Source of the DNA: a virus
Strand: one strand, 5' to 3'
IMG/VR virus record: IMGVR_UViG_3300045988_118650
DNA length: 60,715 nt
Below, in pieces: positions 2,612 through 52,527 of this stretch (positions are counted from its first letter, which is position 1; the number at the start of each line of letters is the position of its first letter). The notes below the pieces were generated by a model that worked only from the letters and a program-made list of their open reading frames with translations, ran no database searches and was not told the origin of the DNA. Position numbers and translations under genes: made by a program.

Positions 2612-2620
2612 GTCAGCTTA

Positions 2621-22327: not shown

Positions 22328-23338
22328 TTATTCATCCTCGATTCCGGCTTTCGCCTTGTTTTGTGCATCCAGTTCGGCTTCCCAGTCGTCGTCCATCTCG
22401 TCGATGGCCTGCTGTTGCAGCTTCTGGCGTTCTTCCAGTGGCAGCCCCAGAATGTCCTCCGACACAACGGGCTGCTGGATGCAGTGGCAATTGATGCGCT
22501 CCCCTGCGGGCAGAATGACGTCGCGGGGGTACATGGGATAGTAGACAATGCCGTCAGCCCCGGTCAGCTCAAATGGCTGATCTTTGGGCACGACCTGTCC
22601 GTCCATGTCGATGTGGTTTTGGCGGGGTTCGTTGCGGTAGTCCCCGGTATGCCGCCAGCTTTTGCCCTCGACGGCCGGGGACTGCATAAAGGCTTCCTGC
22701 TGGGCGACGCTGTGCGCTCCCAGTATTTCAGTAACGGCCACCCGGCGGGCGCGGTAGTGGGAAGTCCAGTATTCGCCTTTGCCCTCTTTCTCCATGCCGG
22801 AGCCGATAAGGTCAACGCAAAACTGTGAGATGTTGCCGCCGTTGTTGATCTCCTTTTTGAGCATGGCTTCGAGCTGGTCTTTACTGGTCGTTCTCATGAG
22901 GTCGGCCAGCTCGTCGCTCCAGCTTTCAATCCATGCGGTGGTGCGCTTGGATACCCTGTCCAGCTTCAGGTTTTTGTCCGTCTGCTTGAGGTAGTATGCA
23001 GCGTACTCCGGCAGGAACTTCGACAGCCGGGCGGCAAATGCTTTACTCAACTTTGCGGTGGCAGGGGTGGCAGCGGTTACAGCCGGGAGCTTCTTCTGAA
23101 AATCTTCCAGACTGCCAGATGCTTTAGCTTCTCGAACAAAGTAGTCCGTTTCCTCGGTGAGTATGTCGGCCACGTCGTCCTCGATATCTTGCGCGTATTG
23201 GAGCGTCTTTTTCGGTTTAGCATACCCTTCCTTTCCAAGCTGCTTCGAGAGGTCGTTGTCAGCTTTTCGGATGTAGGCATCAATAGCCTTTGCTATGCGG
23301 TCGCAGTAGCAAGGCTTGATAACAAGGCGCTGTTTCAC
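22328..23338 (-). CDS. Minor head protein (Mu F / SPP1 gp7 family)
   Basis: SWRHTGDYRNEPRQNHIDMDGQVV...ERINCHCI is a typical Mu F C-terminal motif. Confidence 0.85.
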   Translation of the reverse strand: MKQRLVIKPCYCDRIAKAIDAYIRKADNDLSKQLGKEGYAKPKKTLQYAQDIEDDVADILTEETDYFVREAKASGSLEDFQKKLPAVTAATPATAKLSKAFAARLSKFLPEYAAYYLKQTDKNLKLDRVSKRTTAWIESWSDELADLMRTTSKDQLEAMLKKEINNGGNISQFCVDLIGSGMEKEGKGEYWTSHYRARRVAVTEILGAHSVAQQEAFMQSPAVEGKSWRHTGDYRNEPRQNHIDMDGQVVPKDQPFELTGADGIVYYPMYPRDVILPAGERINCHCIQQPVVSEDILGLPLEERQKLQQQAIDEMDDDWEAELDAQNKAKAGIEDE

Positions 23339-24924
23339 TGCTCTCCCTCCTGCTGCTCTTTTAGATCAACCAGCAGGCGGCGCACCTCTTTCATGACGGC
23401 GTAGACCTGCGTGTCCTCCGGGCGGTTGGCTGCTTTCTGGATTTTGCCATCAAGGGCCATCGTGAGAGCGCCAAGGTCAAAGCCGCCGCTGCTGTTGGAC
23501 TGCGTGATGGACAGCGGGACGTTGCCCCAGTCTTCGTCATAGTCGTCCGACGCTTCGCCAAGGTACTTGTAGAGGATCTCTTTTGCCTTGTTGGGGGTGA
23601 CGCCGCCCGCTGCCGTCGCTGCGGTAAGTATTTTGCAGATGTCGTCCGGGTTGGAGATGTTCGGCTCAAGGAAGTAGGCTTCGACATACTTAAAGCCGTA
23701 GGCGTTCAGCAGACGGTTGTTGATGGCCCACGCAAGGCTCTTGCGTTCCGGCTGGAAAACCTGCTTCTCCGTGACCTCCTGCGCGGTCTGCGCGGTTGCG
23801 CGGTTGAAGTCGGTCGTGTACCCGGTGTAGAGGTCGGGCAGCAGGAACGAGCTTTGCACCTTCTTGCGGTTGTTGTCCATGTAGGACTGGAACAGCTCGT
23901 CCTTCTGTAAGATGGATGCCAAATCCTTGACCTCGATTCTCGGCTTTTCGGTCTCGTCAAAGTCGGTCTTGCCGTCGGTGGATTCGGTTTCGAGGACGAT
24001 AAAGGCGTGTTGCCCCGCTTCGCCCTTGATGTCGTCCATGTACTTCGTCAGCTTGTCGTAGCTGTCATCCGTGAGGGTGCCGCCCTGAATCATAATCATA
24101 AGCGGGGTGTGACGGCCGTTGATAAAGTAGTTGTTGTTCAGGCGTTCAGCGCGGCGGCTGCCATCGACGCCAAGAATCTGACCTATCCAGCGGACTTCTC
24201 CGTAGGGCTGGATGCCGATGGAAAAGTCCAGGATCTCGTTTGCTTCATAGGTAATATCGAGAGATTCTCCGTCTTCGAGGTAATGACCGTCGCGCCAGTC
24301 CATGCGGCGCGGGTCGCCAAACTCTTTGAAATAGACGACCTTGCCGCCGATCTGCTGCCGGAATTTGCGGAACTTCTTTTTTCGCTGGACGGGCTCACCG
24401 TGGGAGTAGTAGACGGTATCAATGCGGGGTTCCAGCGGGACGGTCATTCGGATAGACGGCGTATCATGCAGAAATTCGATCTGCTGGACTTGCCCGTCAA
24501 GGCTGCGGATGACTTCCAGATAGGCGATGCCGTATGTTTCGCGGGCTTCAATGAGGTCTTCAAAGACTTCCTTTGTGTCCTGCTCGGTGTTCAGCAGCTC
24601 AATGATGCTGGCCATGCGGTTGTACTCCGCGTTGGCTTCATCGCTTTCCTTGACGTCTTCGGCGTACTTGACGCCGATGCCAAAGCCTGCGATGTTGTCC
24701 TTGTAGGCGCGGATGCACTGCGGCAGGATGGTCGATTCTCGGACAAGATCATGCAGACCGGCCAGCTCATAGGGCGGTTCAATCCAGTCGCCAGCGTTAA
24801 AAGCTTCCTGCTCCGTGACCTGCGTTGTGGTGTCGGACTTCTGGATGGGCTGCAATGGCGGCTTGTATTCGCGGCCTTTGATGATGCGGGCCTGCATGGG
24901 GCGCGGTTTCTTATTCGTTGCCAA
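23335..24924 (-). CDS. Portal protein
   Basis: 529 aa, located directly after TerL. Confidence 0.88.
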   Translation of the reverse strand: MATNKKPRPMQARIIKGREYKPPLQPIQKSDTTTQVTEQEAFNAGDWIEPPYELAGLHDLVRESTILPQCIRAYKDNIAGFGIGVKYAEDVKESDEANAEYNRMASIIELLNTEQDTKEVFEDLIEARETYGIAYLEVIRSLDGQVQQIEFLHDTPSIRMTVPLEPRIDTVYYSHGEPVQRKKKFRKFRQQIGGKVVYFKEFGDPRRMDWRDGHYLEDGESLDITYEANEILDFSIGIQPYGEVRWIGQILGVDGSRRAERLNNNYFINGRHTPLMIMIQGGTLTDDSYDKLTKYMDDIKGEAGQHAFIVLETESTDGKTDFDETEKPRIEVKDLASILQKDELFQSYMDNNRKKVQSSFLLPDLYTGYTTDFNRATAQTAQEVTEKQVFQPERKSLAWAINNRLLNAYGFKYVEAYFLEPNISNPDDICKILTAATAAGGVTPNKAKEILYKYLGEASDDYDEDWGNVPLSITQSNSSGGFDLGALTMALDGKIQKAANRPEDTQVYAVMKEVRRLLVDLKEQQEGEQ

Positions 24925-24930
24925 TGGGGT

Positions 24931-26352
24931 TTACTCCTTTCTTCCTGCTCCCTTTGGCGGGTGAGCTTTCGAGGGCTTGACGGGCAGGCACAGCAGCAAA
25001 ATGCAGTCGGCTTCGTCGGGGGACGGCCGGCCGCGTGCTTTGACGTCCTTTTTGCTCTCGATCTTGACCTTGCTTTTCTCCGTGATGCCGTATTTACGGG
25101 TGGAGAGCTGCGCGGCCAGATCTGCGTCGTCGGGCAGGATAAGTTCAACGGGCTTTTCGTTGCCGTCGTCGTCAATGGTTTGGAGTAGCTTTTTGACAAT
25201 GGCCATCATGTAGGTGGTCGTGTCGTGATAATACTTGTGCCGGATGATCTGGCCAAACTTGACCGGGACGATGGAGAGCCACCAGAAACGGTCGGGGTCG
25301 CTGCGCTTGATCTGGCGCAAGTTGTCGGTTACGCCACCGCCGACGCCGCCGTCGTCGATCTTGACGGGTATCGCGGTTTCGAGGTGGTATTTATCAACAA
25401 GCCTGCATCCCAGCAGGGCTATTTCGTGGGCGGTTCGCACCGTGTCCTGTCCCTGTATCTTCTGGTGAAAATAGACCTTTTCATCGACCTTGTAGCCGAT
25501 GACGGTTTTATCGTCACCAAATCGGGCGACGTCGCAGCCGATATGAACAGACAGCGGCTTTTCCGGCTCTTTCCAGTCGGTGTTGATGGACTTCTCGACC
25601 ATGGACAGCGGGATAAAGACGTCCTTCTCGGATTTCGGGAAGTCCCCGGCTACGCGGACGCGGAACACGTCTGAATCCTCGCCGTACATGGTTCTGATTC
25701 TGTCGATGTACTCCTGCGACACGCGGGGGCTGTTTCGGTCGTCAACGTGGATGGTGTGATATTCTGCCCGGTTCTTGTGGAAAGCGTCGTAAAAGAAGCC
25801 CTGCAACTGTGTGGGGTTCCCGCACATCAGGAGCCGCGCTCCCTCTGTGGATAGGGCACCCAGAACAGGCTCAAAGACCTTGTCGTCCACGCCGGATGCT
25901 TCGTCGATGATAAACAGCAGGTTCTCGGAGTGAAATCCTTGCAGGGCGTCCGGGGTGTTCGATGTTCGGGCGACGGCAAACCATTCCTCTTTGGCTCCTG
26001 TCATATAGACGCGCTCCTGCGTCCATGTGATCTCCCGTTGCAATGCCGGGTTGCTGCGCAGCCACTTGGACACCTCGGCCCAGAGGATGTCATATAGCTG
26101 GTGCTGTGTGGGGGCTGTGCAGGGGATTTTCGGGTAAGGGCGGGTGCAGATAAACCAGATAATAGCCCACGCCTGCACGGCGCTCTTTCCGATGCCGTGC
26201 CCAGAACGAACGGCCGTCATGGGGTTCTCGGCAAGGCTCCGCAGGATGTTGGCCTGCTCCTCGTCCGGCTTGGCTCCTATGATGTCCTCGACGAACTCGA
26301 CCGGATGGTCTGCATAGAAAAGCACGGCGTCACTTGTCATCTGCTTCACCAT
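24931..26352 (-). CDS. terL: Terminase large subunit
   Basis: Walker A GHGIGKS, Walker B LLFIIDEASG, and a C-terminal nuclease-like half. Confidence 0.92.
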   Translation of the reverse strand: MVKQMTSDAVLFYADHPVEFVEDIIGAKPDEEQANILRSLAENPMTAVRSGHGIGKSAVQAWAIIWFICTRPYPKIPCTAPTQHQLYDILWAEVSKWLRSNPALQREITWTQERVYMTGAKEEWFAVARTSNTPDALQGFHSENLLFIIDEASGVDDKVFEPVLGALSTEGARLLMCGNPTQLQGFFYDAFHKNRAEYHTIHVDDRNSPRVSQEYIDRIRTMYGEDSDVFRVRVAGDFPKSEKDVFIPLSMVEKSINTDWKEPEKPLSVHIGCDVARFGDDKTVIGYKVDEKVYFHQKIQGQDTVRTAHEIALLGCRLVDKYHLETAIPVKIDDGGVGGGVTDNLRQIKRSDPDRFWWLSIVPVKFGQIIRHKYYHDTTTYMMAIVKKLLQTIDDDGNEKPVELILPDDADLAAQLSTRKYGITEKSKVKIESKKDVKARGRPSPDEADCILLLCLPVKPSKAHPPKGAGRKE

Positions 26353-26830
26353 CCATTCTGCGCTGATAGGCTTCCTCGATGGTCTGCATCAGGCTGGGGG
26401 TGGCATTCGCGTCCTCCTGCGGGGCTTTTTCCAGTACGAGGTTGTTTTCGACTTCAAGGGCCAGCTTCAGCATCTCCTTGATATCGCGGGGCGTCATATC
26501 CTCCGGGGCCAAAAGGTTCAGGGCATTCAGTGCCTTTAGTTGGAGTTGGGCGGCTATTTGCAGATGGGTTTTGCGGATGTTGGCCGCTTCTTTGGCTGCG
26601 CTTTTGCGGGCTTCTTCGTCGATGCTGTTATCGTAAGCCCGGCAGCGGGCGGCCCAGTTGTGGCCTTTGTGCCAGCGGTCGATTAGACTTCGATTCTTGC
26701 CGCATTCCTTTACCACCGCCGACACGGTGCGGTTTTTGCCCATATCCCGGTATAAAGAGAATGCAGCATAGGCCGGGTCGCTCTCTTTGGGCTGCTGCTC
26801 CCAGACCTTTGTTTTGACCTGTTTTTCCAT
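26330..26830 (-). CDS. terS: Terminase small subunit (HTH)
   Basis: 166 aa upstream of and overlapping terL. Segment AAFSLYRDMGKNRTVSAVVKECGKNRSLIDRW is HTH-like. Confidence 0.7.
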   Translation of the reverse strand: MEKQVKTKVWEQQPKESDPAYAAFSLYRDMGKNRTVSAVVKECGKNRSLIDRWHKGHNWAARCRAYDNSIDEEARKSAAKEAANIRKTHLQIAAQLQLKALNALNLLAPEDMTPRDIKEMLKLALEVENNLVLEKAPQEDANATPSLMQTIEEAYQRRMDGEADDK

Positions 26831-26871: not shown

Positions 26872-27447
26872 TCATGCCGATGCGGTGACGGTATCGACGA
26901 TGATCTTGACGATGGCATCCTCGCCGTGTTCCTTGATGTAGGCTTTCAAGGGTTTCTCGTCGGCTGCATCAAAGTCAAGGCTCAGCAGGAAGTTATCTTC
27001 CAGATCCTCTTCAGGTTCTTCGTCGGTTTCGGTCACGTCGTCAAAGTAGGATTTGAGTTCATCCCTCAAAACGTCGATTTCCGGGAGCGTGAATCCTGTG
27101 TCGGCTGCTTCTTCGCCCAGCTCGGTGAGGATGTCGGTCAACTTCTTGTCGTCCCATTCACCCGTTATCTTGTTCAAGGCGATGTTGAGCTCCTTTTCCT
27201 TGATGTCGTCCAGATCGACGACGGAAACAGTGACTTCGGTTTCGCCCTGTGCTTCAAGGACGGTCAAACGCTGGTGGCCGGAAACAACGGTATTTGTGCG
27301 ACGGTTCCAAACGATAGGCTGCACCAGACCGTGGCGCTTCAAGCTGCGCTCGATGGCCTGATATTCTTCGTCCTCCGGCTTGAGATCGACGCGGGGGTTA
27401 TAGGCAGCGCGGTTGATGTCCGCGATGCGCTTCACTTCAAATTCCAT
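26872..27447 (-). CDS. ParB N-terminal (ParB/Srx-fold nuclease-like) domain protein 1
   Basis: RIADINRAAYNPRVDL..ERSLKRHGLVQPIVWN..VVSGHQRLTVLEAQG. Confidence 0.8.
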   Translation of the reverse strand: MEFEVKRIADINRAAYNPRVDLKPEDEEYQAIERSLKRHGLVQPIVWNRRTNTVVSGHQRLTVLEAQGETEVTVSVVDLDDIKEKELNIALNKITGEWDDKKLTDILTELGEEAADTGFTLPEIDVLRDELKSYFDDVTETDEEPEEDLEDNFLLSLDFDAADEKPLKAYIKEHGEDAIVKIIVDTVTASA

Positions 27448-27450
27448 GCG

Positions 27451-28068
27451 TTAGTCCTCCCCTTTGATGCTTTCCATGATGGCAGCGGAGAGGGCGGCGC
27501 GGGCGTTGTCCTGTTCGAGGTATGCGTCCACTGCGCCCTTGTACTGCTCCGGGATGGAAAAAATCATCGAGAATGTGGCGTCGGCAGGGGGTTCTTCTTC
27601 CTGCTCGTTGTCCGGCTGCGGTTCAGGCGGTGTGTAGTCGAGAATATCGGCCAGACGGTTCTGGTACTGGTCGATAAGGCCTTGCAGCTCATAGTCTTCA
27701 AAGCCTGTGAGGGATACGTCGCCGCGTTCGGAAAGCTCTTTCATGAGGGGTGCCAGCTTTTCATTATCCCAGCGGCCTTTTGCACGGTTGAGGATGATGT
27801 TCAGCTTCTTTTCCTCTCTGAGGGTTTCGTTTATGACGACAACGTCGGTTTCGGTCTCCCCGATATCGCACAAAGCCTTGATTCTCTGGTGGCCGCCCAC
27901 GACGTGCCCGGTCTTTTCGTTCCAGATGACGGGTTCGACCATGCCAAAGGTTTCAAGGCTCTGCTTTATCTTGATGTATGCGGGGTCGTCCGGCTGTAAG
28001 TCCTTGCGCGGGTTATAGCTGGCAGGTTTAAGATCTGCAAGCCGCATTCTCCTGATATTCATTGCCAT
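27451..28068 (-). CDS. ParB N-terminal domain protein 2 (paralogue of 26872..27447)
   Basis: RLADLKPASYNPRKDL..KQSLETFGMVEPVIWN..VVGGHQRIKALCDIG. Confidence 0.8.
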   Translation of the reverse strand: MAMNIRRMRLADLKPASYNPRKDLQPDDPAYIKIKQSLETFGMVEPVIWNEKTGHVVGGHQRIKALCDIGETETDVVVINETLREEKKLNIILNRAKGRWDNEKLAPLMKELSERGDVSLTGFEDYELQGLIDQYQNRLADILDYTPPEPQPDNEQEEEPPADATFSMIFSIPEQYKGAVDAYLEQDNARAALSAAIMESIKGED

Positions 28069-28738
28069 GTTTCGTTACCTCCCGGCGGGTGAAGAAATAG
28101 AAGAACGGCGTATCTGCCAGAGCAAGGCAGGCTTTCAGCAGGTACTGACCGATCATCATGCCGATAAGGTTCATGCGGCCCTCCGGGGTGAATGCCCAGC
28201 CAAGGCCCAGACCGAAACTGATAAAGGCGTAAATAAACGTGTCGATGATCTGGCTTGTGCAGGTGGAGCCATTATTCCAGATCCAGCGGCCGCCTTTGAC
28301 GTCGCCATGCTTGCGGATGTAAGCATCACGGATTTTGTGGAATACAAAGACGTCCCAGCTCTGGGATGCGTAATAGGCGCACAGGCTGCCGATGACAAAT
28401 ACCCAGTTCTGGCCTAAAAGCGTCTGATATGCGCCATCAATAACAGGGTCTACAGCCTTGCACCAGCCTGTGAGGATAATTGCGATGGTTGCGAAAATCT
28501 GGCCCACAAAGCCAAAGAAAACCATGTTCTGCGCTTTCTTGCGTCCCCAGATTTCGCCGACGATGTCGGTGCACAGGAACGTGACGGCGTAGGTGATCGC
28601 GCCGCCGGATGTGGACAGGGTGATGGGGCCAAGGTGGATGCCGGTGGTGATGGTGCGGCTGCCGACGACGTTTGCGATGACGATGGAGATCACAAACAAG
28701 GTCAGCAGGATAGAGTAGTTCTTGTCGGTCTTTTTCAT
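28028..28738 (-). CDS. yhhQ: YhhQ/DUF165-family queuosine-precursor (preQ0/preQ1) transporter
   Basis: Multi-TM protein with GGAITYAVTFLCTDIVGEIWG, SQSWDVFVFHKIR and STCTSQIIDTFIYAFISFG. ATG at 28736-28738. Confidence 0.8.
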   Translation of the reverse strand: MKKTDKNYSILLTLFVISIVIANVVGSRTITTGIHLGPITLSTSGGAITYAVTFLCTDIVGEIWGRKKAQNMVFFGFVGQIFATIAIILTGWCKAVDPVIDGAYQTLLGQNWVFVIGSLCAYYASQSWDVFVFHKIRDAYIRKHGDVKGGRWIWNNGSTCTSQIIDTFIYAFISFGLGLGWAFTPEGRMNLIGMMIGQYLLKACLALADTPFFYFFTRREVTKHGNEYQENAACRS

Positions 28739-28764
28739 TTTGTCCTCCTGTTGGTAGGTTTTAT

Positions 28765-29658
28765 TTAGTCCTGCGGGCCGCAGGTGCGGGCGTACAGGTC
28801 TTTGCAGATGGTCGCGCAAAGGCTGGCGTTTGTGGTGTATACCAGCTTTTTGCCTGTCGGTTCGATGCCACGGGCCAGCATCATGGCTTTTATCTGTGCT
28901 TCGCGCTCGTTGTACAGGCTGCGCTTGAAATTGCGGATGTGTTCTTTTCGGTAGCCGTCGTCAATATAGCCGTACTTGACGCCGGAAAGCCAGCTCGTGC
29001 TATCTGCGGATGTGCAGAAGTTGTTTTCCCGGATGATTTTGAAGTCGGTACAGCCCAGCAGGTGGATATCGATTTCAGGCTTCTTGTTCTTGATGTAGTG
29101 CGTGATGTAGCGTATATCCCGCTTGTGGGTCGCAGGCTTTACAATGCGCCACTCCGGGACGCTGACGGCGATGTAGTCGGAAAATTCAATCAGGCGGTCA
29201 AGGCCCTTTTGTCCGTCCTCAAAGTGAAAGACGTTGATCTGCTTGCTCTCCGGCATCATGTCCTTCATGCGCTGCCTGAAATACCATGCTTCATCAACGC
29301 CAAGGACTTTCTGACAGTCGATCTCGACAATGGATGCGGTGATGTGGTTCTGTTTGACAAAGGCCATGAGCTTGTCCTGCCATTCGGTCAGGGTGGAAAT
29401 GGTCTGCTTCTGTCCCTTGCCAGCGCCGAACATCAGAGTGAAAAGGCCTGAATCCTGAATGACGTGTTTCTGTTGCCGCTGCTGCTCCAGAATAATATCA
29501 TCTTCCGGCAGCCTGAAATCGTCGTCAGGCTTTTTGCCGACGATATAGTTGTAGCAGCTGTACAGGCGATAGTGGGTATCTGCGGCAACGAGTGCGCAAA
29601 AGTTTTCTTTACTGCCGTCACTTCCGGCAAAATGAATCTTGACGTTACGCCCTAACAT
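28765..29658 (-). CDS. dpdA: DpdA-like tRNA-guanine-transglycosylase-family DNA transglycosylase
   Basis: TGT-like motifs QDSGLFTLMFG (compare DSGGFQ) and IHLLGCTD. ATG at 29656-29658 follows GGAGGTGG. Neighbours are queD and yhhQ. Confidence 0.7.
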   Translation of the reverse strand: MLGRNVKIHFAGSDGSKENFCALVAADTHYRLYSCYNYIVGKKPDDDFRLPEDDIILEQQRQQKHVIQDSGLFTLMFGAGKGQKQTISTLTEWQDKLMAFVKQNHITASIVEIDCQKVLGVDEAWYFRQRMKDMMPESKQINVFHFEDGQKGLDRLIEFSDYIAVSVPEWRIVKPATHKRDIRYITHYIKNKKPEIDIHLLGCTDFKIIRENNFCTSADSTSWLSGVKYGYIDDGYRKEHIRNFKRSLYNEREAQIKAMMLARGIEPTGKKLVYTTNASLCATICKDLYARTCGPQD

Positions 29659-29980
29659 AGACGCCACCTCCCTGCCCGTCTTCCTGTACGGTGACTTCCG
29701 CACAGCCGAAAGTATCGGCAATCAGTTTTGCGATCATCTCGCAGGACATAGAGCCAAAGGCCATGTGCCCGTTTTCGTCGCCGAAACGGTCGGACAGAAA
29801 ATGGTGGATGCGGTTCTGCGTCTGGATGATCTCCAAATCGCGGTTGTCATGTGTGACAGGGATTTTTGCGGTAATGCCGAACACATGGCGGTGGACGCTG
29901 CGCAGATATGCCAGCTCCGCCGGGGCGTCCGGCCAGTTATGGAAACCAGGAACGTCCACTTTGCAAATGATGTAGTACAC
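29645..29980 (-). CDS. queD: QueD-like 6-carboxytetrahydropterin synthase (PTPS fold)
   Basis: 111 aa. VHRHVF (compare HGHSF), SCEMIAKLI and VTVQEDGQGGGVY resemble the E. coli QueD layout. GTG start follows GAAAGGAGG. Confidence 0.55.
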   Translation of the reverse strand: MYYIICKVDVPGFHNWPDAPAELAYLRSVHRHVFGITAKIPVTHDNRDLEIIQTQNRIHHFLSDRFGDENGHMAFGSMSCEMIAKLIADTFGCAEVTVQEDGQGGGVYVRA

Positions 29981-30041
29981 AGTTCTTTCCTCCTTTCAGA
30001 TGTATTTTGCCCTTTCGCGGCGCTCATCCCGATTTCTGCGC

Positions 30042-30078
30042 AAAAAAGAACCACCCGGCCGCTATTGCGGTCAGGTGG
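30042..30078 (-). terminator. Intrinsic terminator between the late regulator and the queD operon
   Basis: Minus strand CCACCTGACCGC-AATA-GCGGCCGGGTGG followed by TTCTTTTTT. Confidence 0.65.
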
Positions 30079-30161
30079 CAGGGCAGAGAAAAGAATGAGT
30101 GCGCTATTCTCTTTGCGTCCAGCGGTTGGGAGTGTCGGAAGCTCCCTGTCGCTTTTCGCAT

Positions 30162-30176
30162 TGTGATAGTATCACA
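30162..30176. promoter_or_regulatory. Perfect 15-bp palindrome TGTGATA-G-TATCACA
   Basis: Read directly in the intergenic leader. Confidence 0.5.
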
Positions 30177-30196
30177 GATTGGTATGCGTATTCTAC

Positions 30197-30226
30197 CTCA
30201 TTTATACTCATTTATACTCATTTGTG
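30197..30226. repeat. Tandem 10-bp repeat (ctcatttata x2 + ctcatttgtg)
   Basis: Read directly. It overlaps the last codons and the stop of the regulator gene. Confidence 0.6.
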
Positions 30227-30692
30227 GTACATTTTCTGTGCTTTCTAGGGTCAAAATGGCTTTTTTATGGATTCTAAGGACGGCTTCAATGTATTTTCGG
30301 TCATCGTTTCCGTACAGTGTGAGGGCTACGGCGTTCCATTTCTTGGGTCTGCAGGTGTCTTCGCACTCTGCGTCCATATATCGCAAGCGCAGGACTTCCC
30401 TTTGCAGGCCGTCCGGGATGGCATCGACCATGCGTTCCAGCTCTTCCATTTTGTCGGAGTTGGCTTTCAAAAGGGGCAGGATCTTTTTTTCATACTCGAT
30501 GTACCGCTCCACGGCAGCTTCCATCTTGTGGCTGTTGCCCGCTGTGTGTGCGCTGCCGTCACTTTCCGGGATACCCGTCAGTCCCCCGGCGGCGTCCCGC
30601 ATATCGTTCAAGCGGGAAAGCCGATTTTTATTCTCCATAGCCATTGGCAGGTATTCGGAAAGACGGTCTTTCGCTGACTGCTGCACTTGCAA
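30198..30692 (-). CDS. Late-gene transcriptional regulator, sigma-70 region-4-like HTH (RinA/ArpU/DUF1492-like)
   Basis: DGLQREVLRLRYMDAE...WNAVALTLYGNDDRKYIEAVLRIHKKAI. It is the last gene before the packaging block. A start at GTG 30686 is more likely than TTG 30692. Confidence 0.6.
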   Translation of the reverse strand: MQVQQSAKDRLSEYLPMAMENKNRLSRLNDMRDAAGGLTGIPESDGSAHTAGNSHKMEAAVERYIEYEKKILPLLKANSDKMEELERMVDAIPDGLQREVLRLRYMDAECEDTCRPKKWNAVALTLYGNDDRKYIEAVLRIHKKAILTLESTENVPQMSINEYK

Positions 30693-37981: not shown

Positions 37982-38116
37982 ATGGTTTCGCATGATGAAT
38001 TTATAAAAGAGTTGCAAGACCTGCTTGCCGCATATCAGGCGGCCAGCGCAGATGACCGTGAAAAAGTTATGCAGATTTTGAAAAAATATATTCCGAAAGA
38101 TAAGGGTCAGCAATGA
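37982..38116 (+). CDS. Hypothetical small protein (44 aa)
   Basis: Own translation MVSHDEFIKELQDLLAAYQAASADDREKVMQILKKYIPKDKGQQ. RBS AAGAGGTG. ATGA overlap with the integrase start. Confidence 0.45.
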   Translation: MVSHDEFIKELQDLLAAYQAASADDREKVMQILKKYIPKDKGQQ

Positions 38117-39837
38117 GGAAAGCAAAAGAGAATCCGCAAAAAGAAAAGCCGCAGCGGGCGGCCATATATTTGCGTGTTTCGACCTCATATCAGGCAGATC
38201 GTGACAGCTTGCCCATGCAGCGCAAAGATCTGGTCGGGTATTGTGAATATGCTTTGAACATCAGCGACTATACCGTATTTGAAGATGCCGGGTATTCTGG
38301 TAAAAATACAGATCGCCCTGCATTTCAAAAAATGATGATGCAGATTCGGAACGGAATGTATTCCCATCTGCTGGTTTGGAAAATAGACCGCATCAGCAGA
38401 AATCTGCTAGATTTTGCCCAGATGTATGAGGAGCTGAAAACGCTGGGCGTTACGTTCATCTCTCGAAATGAACAGTTTGATACTTCAACCGCTATGGGTG
38501 AAGCGATGCTCAAAATGGTTCTGATTTTTGCGGAGCTTGAGCGCAAAACAACCGCAGAGCGCGTGACGGCCACCATGATAAGCCGGGCAAATGATGGCAC
38601 ATGGAACGGCGGTCGGGTTCCGTTTGGGTACGATTACAATAAAGAAACCCAGACCTTTTCTATCAACGGTGACGAAAGCTATATTGTTCTGCAGATGTAT
38701 GATCTGTATGAAAAGACCGATTCGTTAGTTCGTACAGCGCGTGAGCTGAACAAGCTCGGCTATGTATCACGCCAGCACAATCCGTTTTCCCCGGTGTCGA
38801 TCTGGATTATTCTTCGGAATCCATGGTATGTTGGCACTTATCGGTACAATTACTACAAAATCCCCGGTCGTAGAGCGGTAAAGGAAGAATCCGAATGGGT
38901 AGTGATCGAGAATCATCACAGCCCGCTGGTTAGTAAAGAACGGTTCGATCACGTTCAAAAGATGCTGGATTCAAATGCCAGATATCGAAATACTCCCGGC
39001 AGGAGTTCAAAGCAGAAAAATGTCAATATTTTTTCTGGGCTTATATGGTGTTCCTGTTGTGGCGCTGCTTTTACAGCTTCTCCGGGAAAGCTCCATGCGT
39101 CCGGGTATCGACCGACAAAATATGGTTGCCCGAATGTGCGCAAGACAAAAACCTGTAATGCAAAATATACCTCGGACCCTGTGATAGGTGAATTTTTGCT
39201 AAATTTCATCTTGAACGTGATAAACGCGCAAAAGGGTTTTGAAAAAATAAACTCCCCTGCCGATCTTGAATCGCGGCTCCTGCGCGGTGATGCGTTCCGG
39301 GATGTGGCAAAGATTGATTCGGCCAGCGTGGCCGCCTTGTATGAGATGCTGTCCTCGTTCTCCCCTGCTGATTCTGTGCTGCTCAAAAAGCCGACCATCA
39401 AAAAGAATCTTGATCCTGAATTGCGAAAGCTGCGAGCGGATAAGCGAAAAACTGAACGCGCTCTCACCCGGCTGGATCATATTTATTTATATTCCAACAA
39501 GCAGATGTCGGACAAAGAATATCTTGTCAAGAAAAATGATTTGATGACCGACTTAAAGGAATTGGATAAATCTATCGGTTTGCTGACCTCGGAATCGTGG
39601 GCGCAGTCGCTTTCAGATGATGATTTCTTAGAGCAAGCCAGCAGCTTTATCATTTCCCAGCGCTTGCAGGAACGTGAGTATATTTATTTTCAGGGTCTTG
39701 CGGAATCGACAGACCCCGCTGTGTTGCGCGCGTTCTTCGTTTCCATAATCGATTCTGTACGCATGAGAAACGGCCTTGTAGAGACTTTGACGTTCAAGAA
39801 CGGAATTTCTCACACGTTTACCTATAAGGCAATATAA
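38113..39837 (+). CDS. Large serine recombinase (integrase)
   Basis: AAIYLRVSTSYQ (catalytic Ser), resolvase-domain motif VWKIDRISRN, a recombinase domain and a Cys-rich zinc-ribbon (CSCCG..CPNVRKTKTC). 574 aa. Confidence 0.93.
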   Translation: MRKAKENPQKEKPQRAAIYLRVSTSYQADRDSLPMQRKDLVGYCEYALNISDYTVFEDAGYSGKNTDRPAFQKMMMQIRNGMYSHLLVWKIDRISRNLLDFAQMYEELKTLGVTFISRNEQFDTSTAMGEAMLKMVLIFAELERKTTAERVTATMISRANDGTWNGGRVPFGYDYNKETQTFSINGDESYIVLQMYDLYEKTDSLVRTARELNKLGYVSRQHNPFSPVSIWIILRNPWYVGTYRYNYYKIPGRRAVKEESEWVVIENHHSPLVSKERFDHVQKMLDSNARYRNTPGRSSKQKNVNIFSGLIWCSCCGAAFTASPGKLHASGYRPTKYGCPNVRKTKTCNAKYTSDPVIGEFLLNFILNVINAQKGFEKINSPADLESRLLRGDAFRDVAKIDSASVAALYEMLSSFSPADSVLLKKPTIKKNLDPELRKLRADKRKTERALTRLDHIYLYSNKQMSDKEYLVKKNDLMTDLKELDKSIGLLTSESWAQSLSDDDFLEQASSFIISQRLQEREYIYFQGLAESTDPAVLRAFFVSIIDSVRMRNGLVETLTFKNGISHTFTYKAI

Positions 39838-41809: not shown

Positions 41810-44314
41810 TCAGGCTCCTTCCATGCTTTCCAGTAGATCAAAGAGGGTCGGTGCGTTCTGCTGGGCGTCTGCTGCTTCGAGGTAGCCCACACCGTCGCGG
41901 AAATAGTCCGGGTTCAGTTCGACGCCCTTTCCCCGGCGGCCCATCTTGACGGCTTCATACGGGACGGTGAAAAGACCGGCAAAGGGGTCGGCTACCAGCT
42001 CGCCGGGGTTTGAGTAGCGGTTGATAAGCCGCTCCACGATGTCGATCTGCAAGGGACAGACGTGCATCTGCTTGCGGCGCTGGCTCTGGCTTGTGTTCAG
42101 GGTCTTCATGCGGTTGATATCGTCCCAGACGGTCATATCCCAGCTTCCCGGGGCGACGACCATAAACGTGGACGGCAGGCGGCCGTCCTTGTCCAGACTT
42201 TCGGCCAGCCTAACGTGCTCTGCGTAAGAATAGACTGTCTCGCGGCTGAATTTGCGGTACAGGCTTTGCAGTTTCGAGGTCGGCACCTTTTCGAGATCCT
42301 CACGGCTAAAAGGGCGGTCGCCGCTGCTGCGCCAGAATGCGTGTGCATCGAGCTGCCATTGTGCGCGGGTGTATTCGTCCTTGCTCTTGGCGACACGGAC
42401 GTCCGCATATCCCTTGCTGTGGTCTGTGGGGAGCTTGCGGAACAGCAAGATGTATTCCGGGCAGCCGACGCCCATCTTGGTGCCGTCCTTGCACTGCTCC
42501 GTCCATCCCAATCTGTAAGTTTGATTATTTTCTCGCACGACGTCGGTCACGACGGTGATCATGCCGAAATAGGCAAAGCCATGCTTGATAAAGTGGGAGA
42601 TGCAGTCGGCGTGAAACGGTTCGATAGTCGGCATTCCCATGCCGGTGACGTTGCCAAACTGGACGCGGTCTTTTACGTGAATCGCAGCCACGCGGCCGGG
42701 CTTCAGAGTCCGCAGCAGCTCCGGCGTCAGATAGTCCATCTGCTCAAAGAATGCGTTGTCGTCTGGGTTGTGCCCGAAATCGTTGTACGACGGAGAATAT
42801 TCGTAGTGATTGCCAAAGGGGATGCTGGTCACATACAGGTCGATGCTGTCGGTCTTCCAGTTCTTGATTTCCTCGACGCAATCGTTGTTGATTGCGGTAT
42901 AGCTCTTTCCGGTGATTTCCACGCGCTCACATCCTATCGTTCTTTTGAGGGATTCCAAGGCAAGGCTGCCAAGGCCGTATTCTTTGATGATCTGCTCCAT
43001 CTTCTCGCTGAGTTCGTCATACTGACGCCACTTGCGCTGCAAGGCCAGCAGGATCTCCGTTTCAGTGTCCATGTATAGGATATCGATAATTACGGGCTTG
43101 TCCTGCAAAAAGCGGTAGATTCTGTGCACCGCCTGAATAAAATCGTTGAATTCGTAGTCAATGCCCATAAAGATTGCCCGGTGACAGAATCGTTGAAAAT
43201 TGCATCCAGAGCCGGACAGGCTCTTTTTTGTGCCGAACAGCCGGGTGCGGCCCTGCGCAAAGTCCATGACGCGCTTCTCGCGGGTTTCCAGCTCCATGCT
43301 GCCGTAGATGTCCACCATATCGGGGATGGCCTTTTTCAGAGCTTTGCGCTCATCTTCGAGGTCGTGCCAGATGACAAAGTGTTCATCCGGGCTGTCGTCG
43401 ATGATGGCCTTGCATTCTGCAGCCCTGATCTCGATGCTGTCCCGTTTTTCCTTTGCAGCGTCGGTCAGCCCCATCGCTGCATCATGGCCCAGCTTCATCT
43501 GACCGTCAGCTTCAAACTCCGCAGGACGGTCAAGGCTTCTAAGCTTGTGGTATCGGATGTTCATCGGCGGCAGGCTATACCCGGCGTCGGAAAAGCCCAG
43601 ATCAGAGGGCTTTTGCAGGAACAGCCCCCACGACGCGCACCAGATCCAGAATTCCTTTTCCCGGCCCGGATATAGTGTCAGGTTGTTCGCCTTTGTGCTG
43701 TCGCGCTTAAAGAATCGGGTCAGCGCCTGCCCGGTATCCATGACCTCCAGAAAGCCCGCATAGTGTATCAGCTCCTTGTAGCGGTTGGGGCTGGGCGTCG
43801 CGGTGTTGGTGAGCTTATAGCGGACGCCCTTAAATTTGAGCATAAATTCCTGATAGGTCTTGCTGCCAAAGCTGCGCAGGGTGGCCGCTTCGTCCAAGCT
43901 GACGGCCGTGAAGTAGTGCGGGTCGATATCGCCGTCGCGCACTCTCTCGTAATTGGTGAGGATGATCGGCGCGTCGCTGGCCTTGACCTCGGCCATGGTG
44001 CGGCAATAGGGCGGCTCCTGCATCCCCAGCAAGTTTACTGCGTCTGCCCGAAATTCCGGCATGACGTTCAGGGGCATAACGATCAGGGTTTGGCCGCCCT
44101 CATGCTTCTGGAGCTGGTTACACCATTCAAGCTGCATTGCGGTCTTTCCAAGGCCAAAACGAGCAAAGATGCCCCGGCGGCCGCCGCGTAATGCCCACAA
44201 GACGCTGGTGCGCTGGTGGGGCTTCAAGACAGGGTTGATCTCCGACGGGTCAACGTCGATGCCCGCAAGCGGGGCGATGTCGATCTTGTTTTCCAAAAAT
44301 TCTTTGTAGGTCAT
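41810..44314 (-). CDS. SNF2/DEAD-like helicase fused to an N6/N4 DNA methyltransferase
   Basis: Helicase motifs GLGKTAMQ, SLDEAATL and NTATPSP plus a helicase-C region. Methyltransferase motif IV is TSIPFG and motif I is VADPFAGLFTV (beta-class order). Confidence 0.85.
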   Translation of the reverse strand: MTYKEFLENKIDIAPLAGIDVDPSEINPVLKPHQRTSVLWALRGGRRGIFARFGLGKTAMQLEWCNQLQKHEGGQTLIVMPLNVMPEFRADAVNLLGMQEPPYCRTMAEVKASDAPIILTNYERVRDGDIDPHYFTAVSLDEAATLRSFGSKTYQEFMLKFKGVRYKLTNTATPSPNRYKELIHYAGFLEVMDTGQALTRFFKRDSTKANNLTLYPGREKEFWIWCASWGLFLQKPSDLGFSDAGYSLPPMNIRYHKLRSLDRPAEFEADGQMKLGHDAAMGLTDAAKEKRDSIEIRAAECKAIIDDSPDEHFVIWHDLEDERKALKKAIPDMVDIYGSMELETREKRVMDFAQGRTRLFGTKKSLSGSGCNFQRFCHRAIFMGIDYEFNDFIQAVHRIYRFLQDKPVIIDILYMDTETEILLALQRKWRQYDELSEKMEQIIKEYGLGSLALESLKRTIGCERVEITGKSYTAINNDCVEEIKNWKTDSIDLYVTSIPFGNHYEYSPSYNDFGHNPDDNAFFEQMDYLTPELLRTLKPGRVAAIHVKDRVQFGNVTGMGMPTIEPFHADCISHFIKHGFAYFGMITVVTDVVRENNQTYRLGWTEQCKDGTKMGVGCPEYILLFRKLPTDHSKGYADVRVAKSKDEYTRAQWQLDAHAFWRSSGDRPFSREDLEKVPTSKLQSLYRKFSRETVYSYAEHVRLAESLDKDGRLPSTFMVVAPGSWDMTVWDDINRMKTLNTSQSQRRKQMHVCPLQIDIVERLINRYSNPGELVADPFAGLFTVPYEAVKMGRRGKGVELNPDYFRDGVGYLEAADAQQNAPTLFDLLESMEGA

Positions 44315-52424: not shown

Positions 52425-52527
52425 AGGAAAAACCTTTCTCCCGGCTATATCCCGCCGGGCGGGCGTCTGGCGGCCTGTGTGCCGCGCTTTTATTGGCTCG
52501 CGGTGTTGCGGGCCAGTGATAAGCATA

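What the first reader, a model, noticed from the sequence alone, without database searches (positions are those of the whole stretch)
28028..29980. Salvage-type 7-deazaguanine DNA-modification module: queD-like, dpdA-like transglycosylase and a yhhQ-type precursor transporter
Three overlapping minus-strand genes sit immediately upstream of the packaging genes. They encode a PTPS-fold QueD-like protein, a TGT-family protein with DSG..F and HLLG motifs (DpdA-like), and a DUF165/YhhQ transporter. No folE, queE or queC is present anywhere in the 60.6-kb genome, so the phage cannot make preQ0 alone. The transporter suggests it imports preQ0/preQ1 or relies on host pools, and exchanges guanine in its own DNA to evade restriction. 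A phage-borne precursor importer coupled to DpdA is an uncommon arrangement.
Basis: partly seen in the sequence, partly recalled or inferred. Interest (0 to 1): 0.75.

Follow-up and report, generated by a model that had tools for sequence, protein, structure and literature searches.

The report
Phage deazaguanine DNA-modification salvage module
A gut (Faecalibacterium-type) temperate phage carries a tight three-gene cassette: a precursor importer, a QueD-like enzyme of the DpdL type and a DNA guanine-swapping enzyme. It most likely lets the phage replace guanine in its DNA with a scavenged 7-deazaguanine base to escape host restriction, and in related phages the importer sits where three precursor-synthesis genes sit instead.

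Summary
The three minus-strand genes are real. Homologue- and RBS-supported coordinates are dpdL-like 29645-29980, dpdA-like 28765-29658 and yhhQ 28028-28738. YhhQ passes the Pfam and TIGRFAM cut-offs. The TGT-like protein models as a TGT-fold TIM barrel and is homologous to phage 9g DpdA (hhalign 97%) and BCD7 DpdA (99.5%).

The "QueD-like" protein has the QueD fold but is not QueD. It is a DpdL homologue (99.8% to phiST CGPG_00067) carrying the DpdL signature LxxxHRHxF. DpdL is the predicted 7-carboxy-7-deazaguanine (CDG) decarboxylase of the 2'-deoxy-7-deazaguanine (dDG) pathway.

No folE, queD, queE or queC occurs in any frame of the window.

In 28 dereplicated related loci, DpdA always lies beside a precursor source: YhhQ, QueD-QueE-FolE, or both. 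DpdL and QueC never co-occur, and one relative has only DpdA-QueC-YhhQ.

I infer that a precursor base, probably CDG, is imported, DpdL converts it, and DpdA inserts the product, so dDG is expected rather than dPreQ0 or dG+. The chemistry is untested.

This is a new variant of a known kind. It is common in gut prophages and present in the inducible phage Roos. Interest 0.55.

The parts
29645..29980 (-). dpdL-like gene (111 aa). QueD/PTPS-fold paralogue with LxxxHRHxF (L26, H30, R31, H32, F34) in place of QueD's CxxxHGH. Predicted 7-carboxy-7-deazaguanine decarboxylase.
   Evidence: tblastn to phiST CGPG_00067 2e-12 and to ACP17 2e-6. hhalign to phiST DpdL prob 99.8, E 8.5e-28, but to phiST QueD prob 4.9. 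AF2 model pLDDT 94; Foldseek best matches are E. coli QueD, TM 0.66-0.73. The motif is present in 63 of 64 unique homologues, while 35 of 35 true QueDs in relatives have CxxxHGH. Start and RBS.
28765..29658 (-). dpdA-like gene (297 aa). TGT-fold DNA guanine transglycosylase, nearer to the DpdA1 type than to DpdA3. Conserved D69-S70-G71, E112/D114, H145/D148/G149, P168-E169, H199-LLGCT and D219-S220.
   Evidence: phrog_887 3e-21. AF2 model pLDDT 94, pTM 0.91. Foldseek against PDB: Cap10 and Z. mobilis TGT, E 1e-6 to 1e-5, TM 0.55-0.60. Foldseek against BFVD: phage 'queuine tRNA-ribosyltransferases', nt-1 DpdA2 and phiST DpdA3. hhalign to BCD7 DpdA prob 99.5, E 1.8e-22 and to 9g DpdA prob 97.1, E 4.7e-11. 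Invariant residues.
28028..28738 (-). yhhQ-type (Vut_1/COG1738) queuosine-precursor transporter gene (236 aa).
   Evidence: PF02592 7e-42 (143.8 bits, cut-off 27.2). TIGR00697 'queuosine precursor transporter' 1.2e-32 (113 bits, cut-off 51). AGGAGG RBS before the ATG at 28738. Related loci carry QueD-QueE-FolE in the same slot.
27451..28068 (-). ParB-like N-terminal-domain gene 1 (205 aa). Conserved neighbour of the cassette and a possible accessory; its role is not established.
   Evidence: phrog_620/498 about 1e-39. PADLOC match to the N-terminal ParB part of a ParB-methyltransferase, 1.5e-34; DpdB only E 0.03-0.06. A ParB-like gene flanks DpdA in 58 of 80 viral loci.
26872..27447 (-). ParB-like N-terminal-domain gene 2 (191 aa), a paralogue of the preceding gene.
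   Evidence: PF02195 8.7e-6; phrog_620 1.6e-38; PADLOC 2.1e-30.

Best explanation
This is a salvage version of the DpdL/DpdA 7-deazaguanine DNA-modification pathway. It sits at the head of the late (packaging) operon of a temperate Faecalibacterium/Oscillospiraceae phage.

Proposed steps:
1. The phage YhhQ-family permease imports a free 7-deazaguanine base from the gut environment. The most likely cargo is 7-carboxy-7-deazaguanine (CDG). The host genus is predicted to be unable to make it.
2. DpdL, a zinc-type T-fold paralogue of QueD, decarboxylates CDG to 7-deazaguanine.
3. DpdA, a TGT-fold transglycosylase, exchanges guanine in phage DNA for that base after replication. This gives 2'-deoxy-7-deazaguanosine, which blunts restriction enzymes.

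Shown here: the identity, fold and homology of the three proteins; the absence of de novo genes; and the interchangeability of YhhQ with QueD-QueE-FolE in relatives.

Inferred: the cargo (CDG), the DpdL reaction, DNA as the target, and dDG as the product.
For: Protein identities.

No FolE, QueD, QueE or QueC in any frame of the window.

Comparative genomics on 108 related loci from viral contigs and bacterial genomes. After dereplication to 28 DpdA clusters the layouts are:
- DpdL-DpdA-YhhQ: 10
- DpdL-DpdA-QueD-QueE-FolE: 7
- both sources: 4
- DpdA-YhhQ: 4
- DpdA-QueC-YhhQ: 1
- DpdA-QueC-YhhQ-QueD-QueE-FolE: 2

No cluster lacks a precursor source. DpdL and QueC, the two enzymes that consume CDG, never co-occur.

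L088 has only DpdA-QueC-YhhQ. Its QueC needs CDG that the phage cannot make, the same logic as for DpdL here.

The DpdL-containing de novo relatives stop at QueE, that is at CDG, and have no QueC. This matches the phiST gene set, whose DNA is fully dDG (PMC10516641).

F. prausnitzii strains are scored as queuosine auxotrophs, and CDG is a predicted salvageable vitamer in gut bacteria that carry YhhQ/QueT/QrtT (PMC6593275).

Tight operon: overlaps or gaps of 41 nt or less, strong RBSs, and a terminator-like hairpin upstream.
Against: - No chemistry was measured.
- DpdL activity has never been reconstituted. Co-expression with DpdA in E. coli gave no dDG (PMC10516641).
- The only characterised YhhQ (E. 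coli) transports preQ0 and preQ1. CDG transport is untested.
- Four clusters have DpdA-YhhQ with neither DpdL nor QueC, some with a YhhQ very close to this one (L043, L066/67). The transporter therefore cannot be strictly CDG-specific unless those phages insert CDG itself.
- This DpdA is nearer to DpdA1 (preQ0-inserting in 9g) than to the DpdA3 that accompanies DpdL in phiST.
- I found no discriminating pocket residue between DpdL-linked DpdAs and the others.
- The host's own Q genes could not be inspected. The host is inferred from relatives.
Confidence: 0.55

Rival explanations
1. YhhQ imports preQ0 (or preQ1) and DpdA inserts it directly, giving dPreQ0 or dPreQ1. The QueD-like protein is accessory, for example processing a minor precursor or acting as a chaperone, or it has a different and still unknown reaction on preQ0.
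For: preQ0 and preQ1 are the only demonstrated YhhQ substrates (PMC6884629; TIGR00697 name). DpdA-YhhQ modules without DpdL or QueC exist in 4 clusters. This DpdA is homologous to the preQ0-inserting 9g DpdA. DpdL activity is unproven.
Against: DpdL is retained in 21 of 28 clusters with an invariant metal and catalytic motif set. It is mutually exclusive with QueC. In the de novo relatives the pathway stops at CDG, so no preQ0 is made there, yet the same DpdL-DpdA pair is used.
Confidence: 0.22
2. DpdA inserts imported CDG into DNA. DpdL then acts downstream, on dCDG in DNA or on another intermediate, or the final mark is dCDG itself.
For: Cui et al. raise CDG as a possible DpdA3 substrate and detected dCDG in a virus. 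DpdA-YhhQ-only modules with a near-identical YhhQ (L043, L066/67) would then insert CDG directly.
Against: T-fold enzymes bind free pterin or purine bases at subunit interfaces, and the published DpdL model favours action on the free base (PMC10516641). The protein is 111 aa with no DNA-binding extension.
Confidence: 0.12
3. The cassette serves the host or translation rather than DNA. The prophage gives a queuosine-auxotrophic host a precursor importer (lysogenic conversion), and the TGT-like enzyme modifies tRNA.
For: The phage is temperate: serine recombinase and prophage copies in bacterial chromosomes. The host genus is scored as a Q auxotroph. The protein has the TGT fold.
Against: The enzyme aligns with phage DpdAs (prob 97-99.5) and not with E. 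coli TGT (prob 0.8). It is 297 aa, and no TGT-like CxCxxC...H zinc motif is conserved in it. The genes sit in the late operon next to terS/terL, not in a moron position. DpdL has no role in tRNA queuosine synthesis.
Confidence: 0.06

Closest known systems
Cellulophaga phage phiST-type dDG pathway (FolE, QueD, QueE, DpdL, DpdA3; Cui, Hutinet et al., NAR 2023, PMC10516641)
   Same: Has a DpdL homologue with the same LxxxHRHxF signature (hhalign 99.8%). DpdL sits next to a DpdA-family transglycosylase. There is no QueC. Related gut-phage loci even keep QueD-QueE-FolE, so they have the same gene logic.
   Different: The window has no FolE, QueD or QueE; a YhhQ importer occupies their slot. The transglycosylase is not DpdA3 (hhalign prob 1.6 to phiST CGPG_00065) but is DpdA1-like. 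The phage is a temperate gut Firmicutes phage rather than a lytic marine Bacteroidetes phage. No adjacent MazG or CGPG_00066-like gene.
Enterobacteria phage 9g / CAjan / Bacillus phage BCD7 DpdA (DpdA1) with a preQ0 pathway (Hutinet et al. 2019, PMC6884629)
   Same: Homologous transglycosylase (prob 97.1 to 9g, 99.5 to the BCD7 N-terminal domain) with aligned DSG, H-x-x-G-x-T and D-S-(S/T)-S-W motifs. The purpose is the same: post-replicative G exchange for anti-restriction.
   Different: Those phages encode FolE, QueD, QueE and QueC or Gat-QueC and make preQ0 or G+. This one encodes none of them and has DpdL plus a transporter. Sequence identity is only about 16-19%.
'DpdA-only' phages and phage-borne YhhQ homologues (group 3 in Hutinet et al. 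2019)
   Same: Depends on host or environmental 7-deazapurines. That paper already states that some phages encode YhhQ.
   Different: [quoted passage not shown] Here it is fixed in an operon with DpdA, usually with DpdL too, and is positionally interchangeable with the de novo genes.
Bacterial Dpd system (DpdA-DpdB-DpdC)
   Same: A TGT-like DpdA next to a ParB-fold protein. DpdB is ParB-like.
   Different: The ParB-like neighbours match DpdB only at E 0.03-0.06 and resemble the ParB N-domain of phage ParB-methyltransferases. There is no DpdC. The bacterial system makes dPreQ0 and dADG as a self-mark for restriction.
E. coli YhhQ and the predicted gut 'Ac' CDG-salvage variant (Zallot 2017; Rodionov et al. 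2019, PMC6593275)
   Same: Same transporter family (TIGR00697 above cut-off). Same logic of a CDG-consuming enzyme plus a transporter without FolE/QueD/QueE.
   Different: The module is phage-encoded and feeds DNA rather than tRNA. The protein falls below the cut-off of the E. coli-type equivalog NF008406 (35.5 against 252 bits). The cargo is unknown.

Membership tests
DpdA (phage 7-deazaguanine DNA transglycosylase, TGT superfamily) | TGT-like (beta/alpha)8 barrel fold | tested here: met
   AF2 model pLDDT 94.2, pTM 0.91. Foldseek against PDB puts Cap10 and TGTs first, E 1.5e-6 to 1e-4, TM 0.55-0.60, against about 0.40-0.45 for other TIM barrels. Foldseek against BFVD hits phage 'queuine tRNA-ribosyltransferases', nt-1 DpdA2 and phiST DpdA3.
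DpdA (phage 7-deazaguanine DNA transglycosylase, TGT superfamily) | Sequence homology to an experimentally validated or literature-listed DpdA | tested here: met
   hhalign of A3 against 9g DpdA: prob 97.1, E 4.7e-11. Against BCD7 gp021, listed as DpdA in Hutinet 2019 Supplementary data 1: prob 99.5, E 1.8e-22. There is no Pfam, NCBIfam or PADLOC hit, but the same is true of BCD7 DpdA and phiST DpdA3 used as controls.
DpdA (phage 7-deazaguanine DNA transglycosylase, TGT superfamily) | Conserved catalytic aspartates (the TGT D102-type in DSG and the D280-type nucleophile after the h-h-G strand) | tested here: met
   D69 (QDSGLF) and D219 (ADSTSW) are invariant in 77 unique family members. They align with LDSGAF and CDSSSW of 9g DpdA and IDSGAY and GDSTTW of BCD7. 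Both lie at the C-terminal ends of beta-strands in the model. Equivalence to Z. mobilis D102/D280 rests on motif and spacing resemblance from my own knowledge; direct hhalign to E. coli TGT failed.
DpdA (phage 7-deazaguanine DNA transglycosylase, TGT superfamily) | Genomic linkage to 7-deazaguanine precursor genes | tested here: met
   All 28 of 28 dereplicated clusters have YhhQ and/or QueD-QueE-FolE adjacent, and 3 have QueC.
DpdA (phage 7-deazaguanine DNA transglycosylase, TGT superfamily) | Exchanges guanine in DNA for a 7-deazaguanine base | not testable with these tools
   Needs an enzyme assay or virion DNA mass spectrometry.
DpdA3 subfamily (phiST / CP220 type) | Sequence similarity to phiST CGPG_00065 | tested here: not met
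   hhalign prob 1.6-2.6. Only a weak structural match: BFVD M4SLA5, E 2.5e-4. It should not be filed as DpdA3.
DpdL (predicted CDG decarboxylase, QueD paralogue) | Homology to phiST CGPG_00067 / ACP17 DpdL | tested here: met
   tblastn 2e-12 and 2e-6; hhalign prob 99.8, E 8.5e-28.
DpdL (predicted CDG decarboxylase, QueD paralogue) | Signature LxxxHRHxF replacing QueD's CxxxHGH, with retained His and Glu ligands | tested here: met
   L26, H30, R31, H32 and F34 are invariant, along with H14, H44, E50, E81 and E100. The motif is in 63 of 64 unique homologues. Motif definition from PMC10516641.
DpdL (predicted CDG decarboxylase, QueD paralogue) | T-fold (PTPS/QueD-like) structure | tested here: met
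   Model pLDDT 94.2. Foldseek best matches are E. coli QueD 4ntk/4ntn/3qn0, TM 0.66-0.73, rmsd about 3 Å.
DpdL (predicted CDG decarboxylase, QueD paralogue) | Occurs with DpdA, FolE, QueD and QueE and without QueC | tested here: inconclusive
   DpdA is present and QueC is absent, which is met. FolE, QueD and QueE are absent from this genome, although 11 of 21 DpdL-containing clusters among the relatives have them. This is the point of novelty.
DpdL (predicted CDG decarboxylase, QueD paralogue) | Decarboxylates CDG to 7-deazaguanine | not testable with these tools
   Not demonstrated in the literature either.
QueD (6-carboxy-tetrahydropterin synthase, PF01242) | CxxxHGH catalytic motif and a Pfam PTPS match | tested here: not met
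   No Pfam or NCBIfam hit. The QueD HMM built from relatives scores E 0.55. hhalign to phiST QueD prob 4.9. Leu replaces the essential Cys. The true QueDs of relatives score 4e-30 to PF01242.
YhhQ / Vut_1 (COG1738) queuosine-precursor transporter | Match to the family models above the curated cut-offs | tested here: met
   PF02592 143.8 bits (cut-off 27.2). TIGR00697 113.3 bits (cut-off 50.95). The E. coli-type equivalog NF008406 scores only 35.5 against 252 bits.
YhhQ / Vut_1 (COG1738) queuosine-precursor transporter | Polytopic membrane protein | tested here: inconclusive
   A crude Kyte-Doolittle scan finds several strongly hydrophobic segments. No proper topology predictor was available.
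YhhQ / Vut_1 (COG1738) queuosine-precursor transporter | Transports preQ0, preQ1 or another 7-deazaguanine | not testable with these tools
   The cargo is inferred only from gene context.
DpdB (ParB-like partner of bacterial DpdA) | Match to DpdB models (NF041060, PDLC02811) | tested here: not met
   E 0.03-0.06, 11-12 bits against a cut-off of 300. These are generic ParB N-domain proteins (phrog_620/498).

The most novel reading that the evidence does not exclude
The phage's anti-restriction DNA chemistry runs on a cross-fed gut metabolite. Its YhhQ-family permease imports 7-carboxy-7-deazaguanine, a cargo never demonstrated for this family, into a queuosine-auxotrophic Faecalibacterium host. 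DpdL decarboxylates it and a DpdA1-like enzyme writes 7-deazaguanine into the phage genome. This would be the first natural setting in which DpdL works without FolE/QueD/QueE. It would also be the first dDG-modified phage of the human gut, and an inducible phage (Roos) is available to test it.
Probability: 0.35. Interest if true: 0.75.

Novelty: new variant of a known kind. Interest (0 to 1): 0.55.

Why it matters
1. It corrects an easy mis-annotation. A 'QueD-like' gene next to dpdA may be DpdL, which changes the predicted DNA base from preQ0-type to 7-deazaguanine.

2. The interchange of YhhQ with QueD-QueE-FolE, and the mutual exclusion of DpdL and QueC, are independent comparative evidence for the still-unproven placement of DpdL at the CDG branch point. 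They also give a concrete, testable prediction that YhhQ-family permeases carry CDG.

3. The cassette is widespread in prophages of Faecalibacterium, Oscillospiraceae, Veillonella and Bacteroidales. Hypermodified G may therefore be common in human-gut phage DNA. That would matter for restriction barriers, CRISPR and nuclease sensitivity, nanopore base-calling and virome library preparation.

4. It ties a phage defence trait to community cross-feeding of queuosine precursors.

5. Phage Roos, inducible from Faecalibacterium sp. FM8, carries the same three genes annotated as hypothetical, so experiments are feasible now.

Tried and rejected
**Negative sequence searches.** Direct Pfam, NCBIfam, PADLOC and PDB sequence searches of the TGT-like and QueD-like proteins, singly and as profiles A1 and A3, gave nothing useful. 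The only trace was a faint PF23859 DpdA signal in 4 of 41 members. I do not count these negatives against the assignment. The literature-defined BCD7 DpdA, phiST DpdA3, phiST DpdL and 9g DpdA are equally invisible to the same searches.

**Bridging to Pfam.** Scanning distant family representatives from the 1.8-billion-protein search did not bridge to a Pfam family.

**Rejected family assignments.**
- hhalign to E. coli TGT and to phiST DpdA3 failed, so DpdA3 membership is rejected.
- The small protein as true QueD is rejected.
- The ParB-like neighbours as DpdB are rejected as members, although the conserved adjacency is noted.

**Riboswitch.** No preQ1 riboswitch lies upstream of the cassette, either at gathering threshold on the whole window or at E up to 10 on 29900-30300.

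**Specificity residues.** I looked for DpdA residues that distinguish DpdL-linked, QueC-linked and unlinked enzymes. Only S166G in 2 of 3 QueC-linked sequences appeared, too few to interpret.

**Literature.** Searches found no description of a DpdL-plus-transporter module or of deazaguanine in Faecalibacterium phages. The phage Roos paper does not mention these genes.

**Gene finding.** A first greedy ORF pick was misled by long antisense ORFs in this 55% GC genome. It was replaced by a minus-strand-first set and six-frame HMM searches.


Full report
**1. What is in the sequence**

Coordinates 28028-29980 hold three co-directional minus-strand ORFs. Homologue lengths (297 aa for the middle protein) and Shine-Dalgarno sites give these genes:
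- a 111-aa gene at 29645-29980 (GTG start, AAGGAGG upstream);
- a 297-aa gene at 28765-29658 (ATG start, GGGAGGTG upstream);
- a 236-aa gene at 28028-28738 (ATG start, AGGAGG upstream).

The first two overlap by 14 nt. The second and third are 26 nt apart. Downstream follow two ParB-like genes (27451-28068 and 26872-27447), then terS (26330-26830), terL (24931-26352) and portal (23335-24924). Upstream lie a phrog_36 transcriptional regulator (30198-30692) and a terminator-like hairpin with a U-run (about 30042-30078). The cassette therefore heads the late/packaging operon. The window is a 60,574-bp genome with an exact 141-nt terminal duplication.

**2. The transporter**

The 236-aa protein matches Pfam Vut_1 (PF02592, 7e-42) and TIGR00697 'queuosine precursor transporter' (1.2e-32). 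Both scores are well above the curated cut-offs. It is below the cut-off of the E. coli-type equivalog NF008406. Family membership is solid. The cargo is not defined by these matches.

**3. The transglycosylase**

The 297-aa protein has no Pfam, NCBIfam, PADLOC or PDB sequence hit. It does match phrog_887 'queuine tRNA-ribosyltransferase' at 3e-21. It belongs to a large family: 1590 relatives at 90% clustering and 862 representatives at 50% clustering.

A confident AlphaFold model (pLDDT 94, pTM 0.91) matches the TGT-like CBASS protein Cap10 and bacterial or archaeal TGTs best (E 1e-6 to 1e-4, TM 0.55-0.60). Unrelated TIM barrels score TM about 0.4. Among viral models it matches many phage 'queuine tRNA-ribosyltransferases', Vibrio phage nt-1 R9TGF0 (the DpdA2 prototype phage) and phiST M4SLA5 (DpdA3).

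A family profile (A3) gave these hhalign results:

| Target | Probability | E-value |
|---|---|---|
| BCD7 gp021, N-terminal domain (listed as DpdA in Hutinet 2019 Supplementary data 1) | 99.5% | 1.8e-22 |
| Phage 9g DpdA (validated) | 97.1% | 4.7e-11 |
| phiST DpdA3 | 1.6% | - |
| E. coli TGT | 0.8% | - |

BCD7 gp021 lies inside a FolE-QueD-QueE-QueC cluster.

D69 in QDSGLF and D219 in ADSTSW are invariant across 77 unique relatives, together with E112/D114, H145/D148/G149, P168-E169 and H199-LLGCT. In the alignments they pair with LDSGAF and CDSSSW of 9g DpdA. They sit at the C-terminal ends of strands in the model. Their equivalence with TGT D102 and D280 is my inference from motif and spacing.

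As controls, BCD7 DpdA, phiST DpdA3 and 9g DpdA are equally invisible to Pfam, NCBIfam, PADLOC or PDB sequence searches. The negative library results therefore carry no weight. I file the protein as a divergent DpdA, nearer to DpdA1 than to DpdA3.

**4. The 'QueD-like' protein is DpdL**

The 111-aa protein models confidently (pLDDT 94) as a QueD/PTPS T-fold. Its best PDB matches are E. coli QueD, TM 0.66-0.73.

It is not QueD, for these reasons:
- It has no Pfam PTPS hit.
- A QueD HMM built from related phages scores E 0.55.
- hhalign to phiST QueD gives 4.9%.
- The essential Cys of CxxxHGH is replaced, giving L26-x3-H30-R31-H32-x-F34.

That is the exact signature LxxxHRHxF that Cui, Hutinet et al. 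give for DpdL (PMC10516641). DpdL is the QueD paralogue they propose as the CDG decarboxylase producing 7-deazaguanine in phiST, whose DNA has all G replaced by dDG.

The window protein hits phiST CGPG_00067 (2e-12) and ACP17 DpdL (2e-6) by tblastn and reaches 99.8% by hhalign. Among relatives, 63 of 64 unique DpdL-like sequences carry the motif. All 35 true QueDs in the same loci carry CxxxHGH.

**5. No de novo pathway**

I built profile HMMs of FolE, QueE and QueD, and took a QueC sequence, from the relatives' own gene clusters. Searched against all six frames of the window with filters off, they found nothing (best E 0.24). Pfam scans of 0.6-3.7 kb and 24.9-60.7 kb also found none of FolE, QueC, QueD, QueE or QueF. 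The 3.7-24.9 kb structural block was covered only by the six-frame HMMs.

**6. The decisive comparative evidence**

I fetched 80 related loci from viral contigs and 28 from bacterial genomes. I annotated their flanks with phmmer or HMMs and spot-checked with Pfam: QueD 4e-30, FolE 1e-58, radical-SAM QueE, QueC 1e-59.

Restricting to loci with enough flank and dereplicating DpdA at 90% identity leaves 28 clusters:

| Layout | Clusters |
|---|---|
| DpdL-DpdA-YhhQ (this window, phage Roos) | 10 |
| DpdL-DpdA-QueD-QueE-FolE | 7 |
| DpdL-DpdA-YhhQ-QueD-QueE-FolE | 4 |
| DpdA-YhhQ | 4 |
| DpdA-QueC-YhhQ | 1 |
| DpdA-QueC-YhhQ-QueD-QueE-FolE | 2 |

Three regularities stand out:
- (a) DpdA is never without an adjacent precursor source.
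- (b) YhhQ and QueD-QueE-FolE occupy the same slot between dpdA and the packaging genes, and they substitute for or add to each other.
- (c) DpdL and QueC, the two enzymes that use CDG, never co-occur (21 clusters against 3, with 0 having both).

The de novo relatives with DpdL end at QueE, that is at CDG, as in phiST. L088, a prophage in an Oscillospiraceae MAG, has DpdA-QueC-YhhQ-ParB-ParB-TerS-TerL with no FolE, QueD or QueE. Its YhhQ is 52% identical to the window's. A lone QueC needs CDG from outside the phage genome, which is the same situation as the lone DpdL here.

**7. Host and ecology**

- The closest isolate is Faecalibacterium phage Roos (68% nt identity; DpdA 62%, DpdL 50%). Its orf77-79 are the same three genes, all annotated 'hypothetical'. 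The paper describing Roos does not mention them.
- Prophage copies occur in a Faecalibacterium MAG (92%), F. prausnitzii UT1 (62%), Oscillospiraceae, Acutalibacteraceae, Veillonella and several Bacteroidales.
- Rodionov et al. (PMC6593275) score all listed F. prausnitzii strains as queuosine auxotrophs.
- The same paper predicts from incomplete-pathway signatures that CDG and preQ0 are salvaged in the gut by bacteria carrying YhhQ, QueT or QrtT.

**8. Mechanism**

Most likely (0.55): YhhQ imports a 7-deazaguanine base, probably CDG. DpdL converts it to 7-deazaguanine. DpdA exchanges G in phage DNA for that base, giving dDG and restriction resistance.

That the cassette is a precursor-dependent 7-deazaguanine DNA-modification system I hold at about 0.85. 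The specific cargo and product are the uncertain part, for these reasons:
- DpdL has never been reconstituted.
- E. coli YhhQ is known only for preQ0 and preQ1.
- DpdA-YhhQ modules without DpdL or QueC exist.
- This DpdA is DpdA1-like.

The rivals are direct preQ0 or preQ1 insertion (0.22), CDG insertion with DpdL acting later (0.12), and a tRNA or host-benefit role (0.06).

The two ParB-like genes are conserved neighbours (58 of 80 loci), and bacterial DpdA needs the ParB-like DpdB. However, they match DpdB only at E 0.03-0.06 and look like the ParB N-domain of phage ParB-methyltransferases. Their involvement is an open possibility, not a finding.

**9. Novelty and verdict**

All three protein families are known, and phage YhhQ homologues were noted in 2019. 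What I could not find described is a DpdL-DpdA module fed by a transporter instead of FolE/QueD/QueE, its prevalence in gut prophages, and the combinatorial pattern that ties YhhQ to CDG-consuming enzymes.

This is a new variant of a known kind, of moderate interest (0.55).

Noticed in passing
window 610-3727 (RT 610-1824 -, TR 1951-2068, VR 2646-2763, target gene 2621-3727 -): A complete diversity-generating retroelement. It has a reverse transcriptase (PF00078 2e-22). A 118-nt template repeat is 92% identical to the variable repeat at the 3' end of a tail-fibre-like gene with an FGE-sulfatase/C-type-lectin domain. All 10 mismatches fall on template adenines. This matches the published DGR richness of Faecalibacterium phages (PMC11792537).
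   Followed up: yes
window 1-141 and 60575-60715: An exact 141-nt terminal duplication. The window is a circularly closed or terminally redundant 60,574-bp phage genome.
   Followed up: yes
L088 2163-7714 (rabbit-gut Oscillospiraceae MAG, CANPXW010000018.1): A relative with DpdA-QueC-YhhQ-ParB-ParB-TerS-TerL, no DpdL and no FolE/QueD/QueE. A lone CDG-consuming QueC next to the transporter is the strongest contextual hint that these YhhQs supply CDG.
   Followed up: partly
window 26872-28068: Two tandem paralogous stand-alone ParB N-domain genes lie between yhhQ and terS. A ParB-like gene flanks DpdA in most related loci, recalling the DpdA-DpdB pairing of bacterial Dpd systems. Matches to the DpdB models are only marginal (E 0.03-0.06).
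   Followed up: partly
window 41810-45263: Other DNA-modification genes in the same genome: an 834-aa helicase fused to an N6/N4 DNA methyltransferase (PF01555 2e-15; phrog_16 1.6e-121), and a second DNA methyltransferase (phrog_757 3e-39) that appears split or short. The phage seems to stack several anti-restriction strategies.
   Followed up: partly
window 38113-39837 (+), within the low-GC stretch about 38-42 kb: A large serine recombinase (Resolvase, Recombinase and Zn_ribbon_recom domains) lies on the opposite strand in a 47% GC island, against 55-59% elsewhere. This is the integration module of a temperate phage. Several spurious-looking antisense ORFs surround it.
   Followed up: partly
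window 49790-50533 (-): A 247-aa protein whose N-terminus resembles MazG-type nucleoside-triphosphate pyrophosphohydrolases (phrog_2245 6e-11; Pfam MazG 0.004). phiST has a MazG-like gene inside its dDG cluster, so a link to nucleotide-pool control is conceivable. It was not examined.
   Followed up: no
window 58809-58874 (-): The only Rfam hit at gathering threshold in the genome: DUF3800-VIII RNA (RF03075, 50.3 bits, E 2e-6). It lies in an intergenic, low-coding stretch near the lysis genes.
   Followed up: no
window about 30042-30078 (-): A GC-rich hairpin (CCACCUGACCGC...GCGGCCGGGUGG) followed by UUCUUUUUU lies between the regulator gene (30198-30692) and dpdL. It is a likely intrinsic terminator, so late-operon read-through or a late promoter must drive the cassette. 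No preQ1 riboswitch is present.
   Followed up: partly
L001 (Faecalibacterium phage Roos, PP479939.1, record 52434-54302): orf77, orf78 and orf79 of this isolated, inducible phage are DpdL, DpdA and YhhQ homologues but are deposited as 'hypothetical protein'. In Roos the ParB-like gene (orf76) precedes dpdL rather than following yhhQ.
   Followed up: yes
DpdA family alignment, residue 166 (window numbering): Ser166, in the conserved A-x-S-x-P-E segment, is invariant in all DpdL-linked (66) and unlinked (8) DpdAs but is Gly in 2 of the 3 QueC-linked ones. It may be a substrate-pocket determinant, but there are too few sequences to judge.
   Followed up: no
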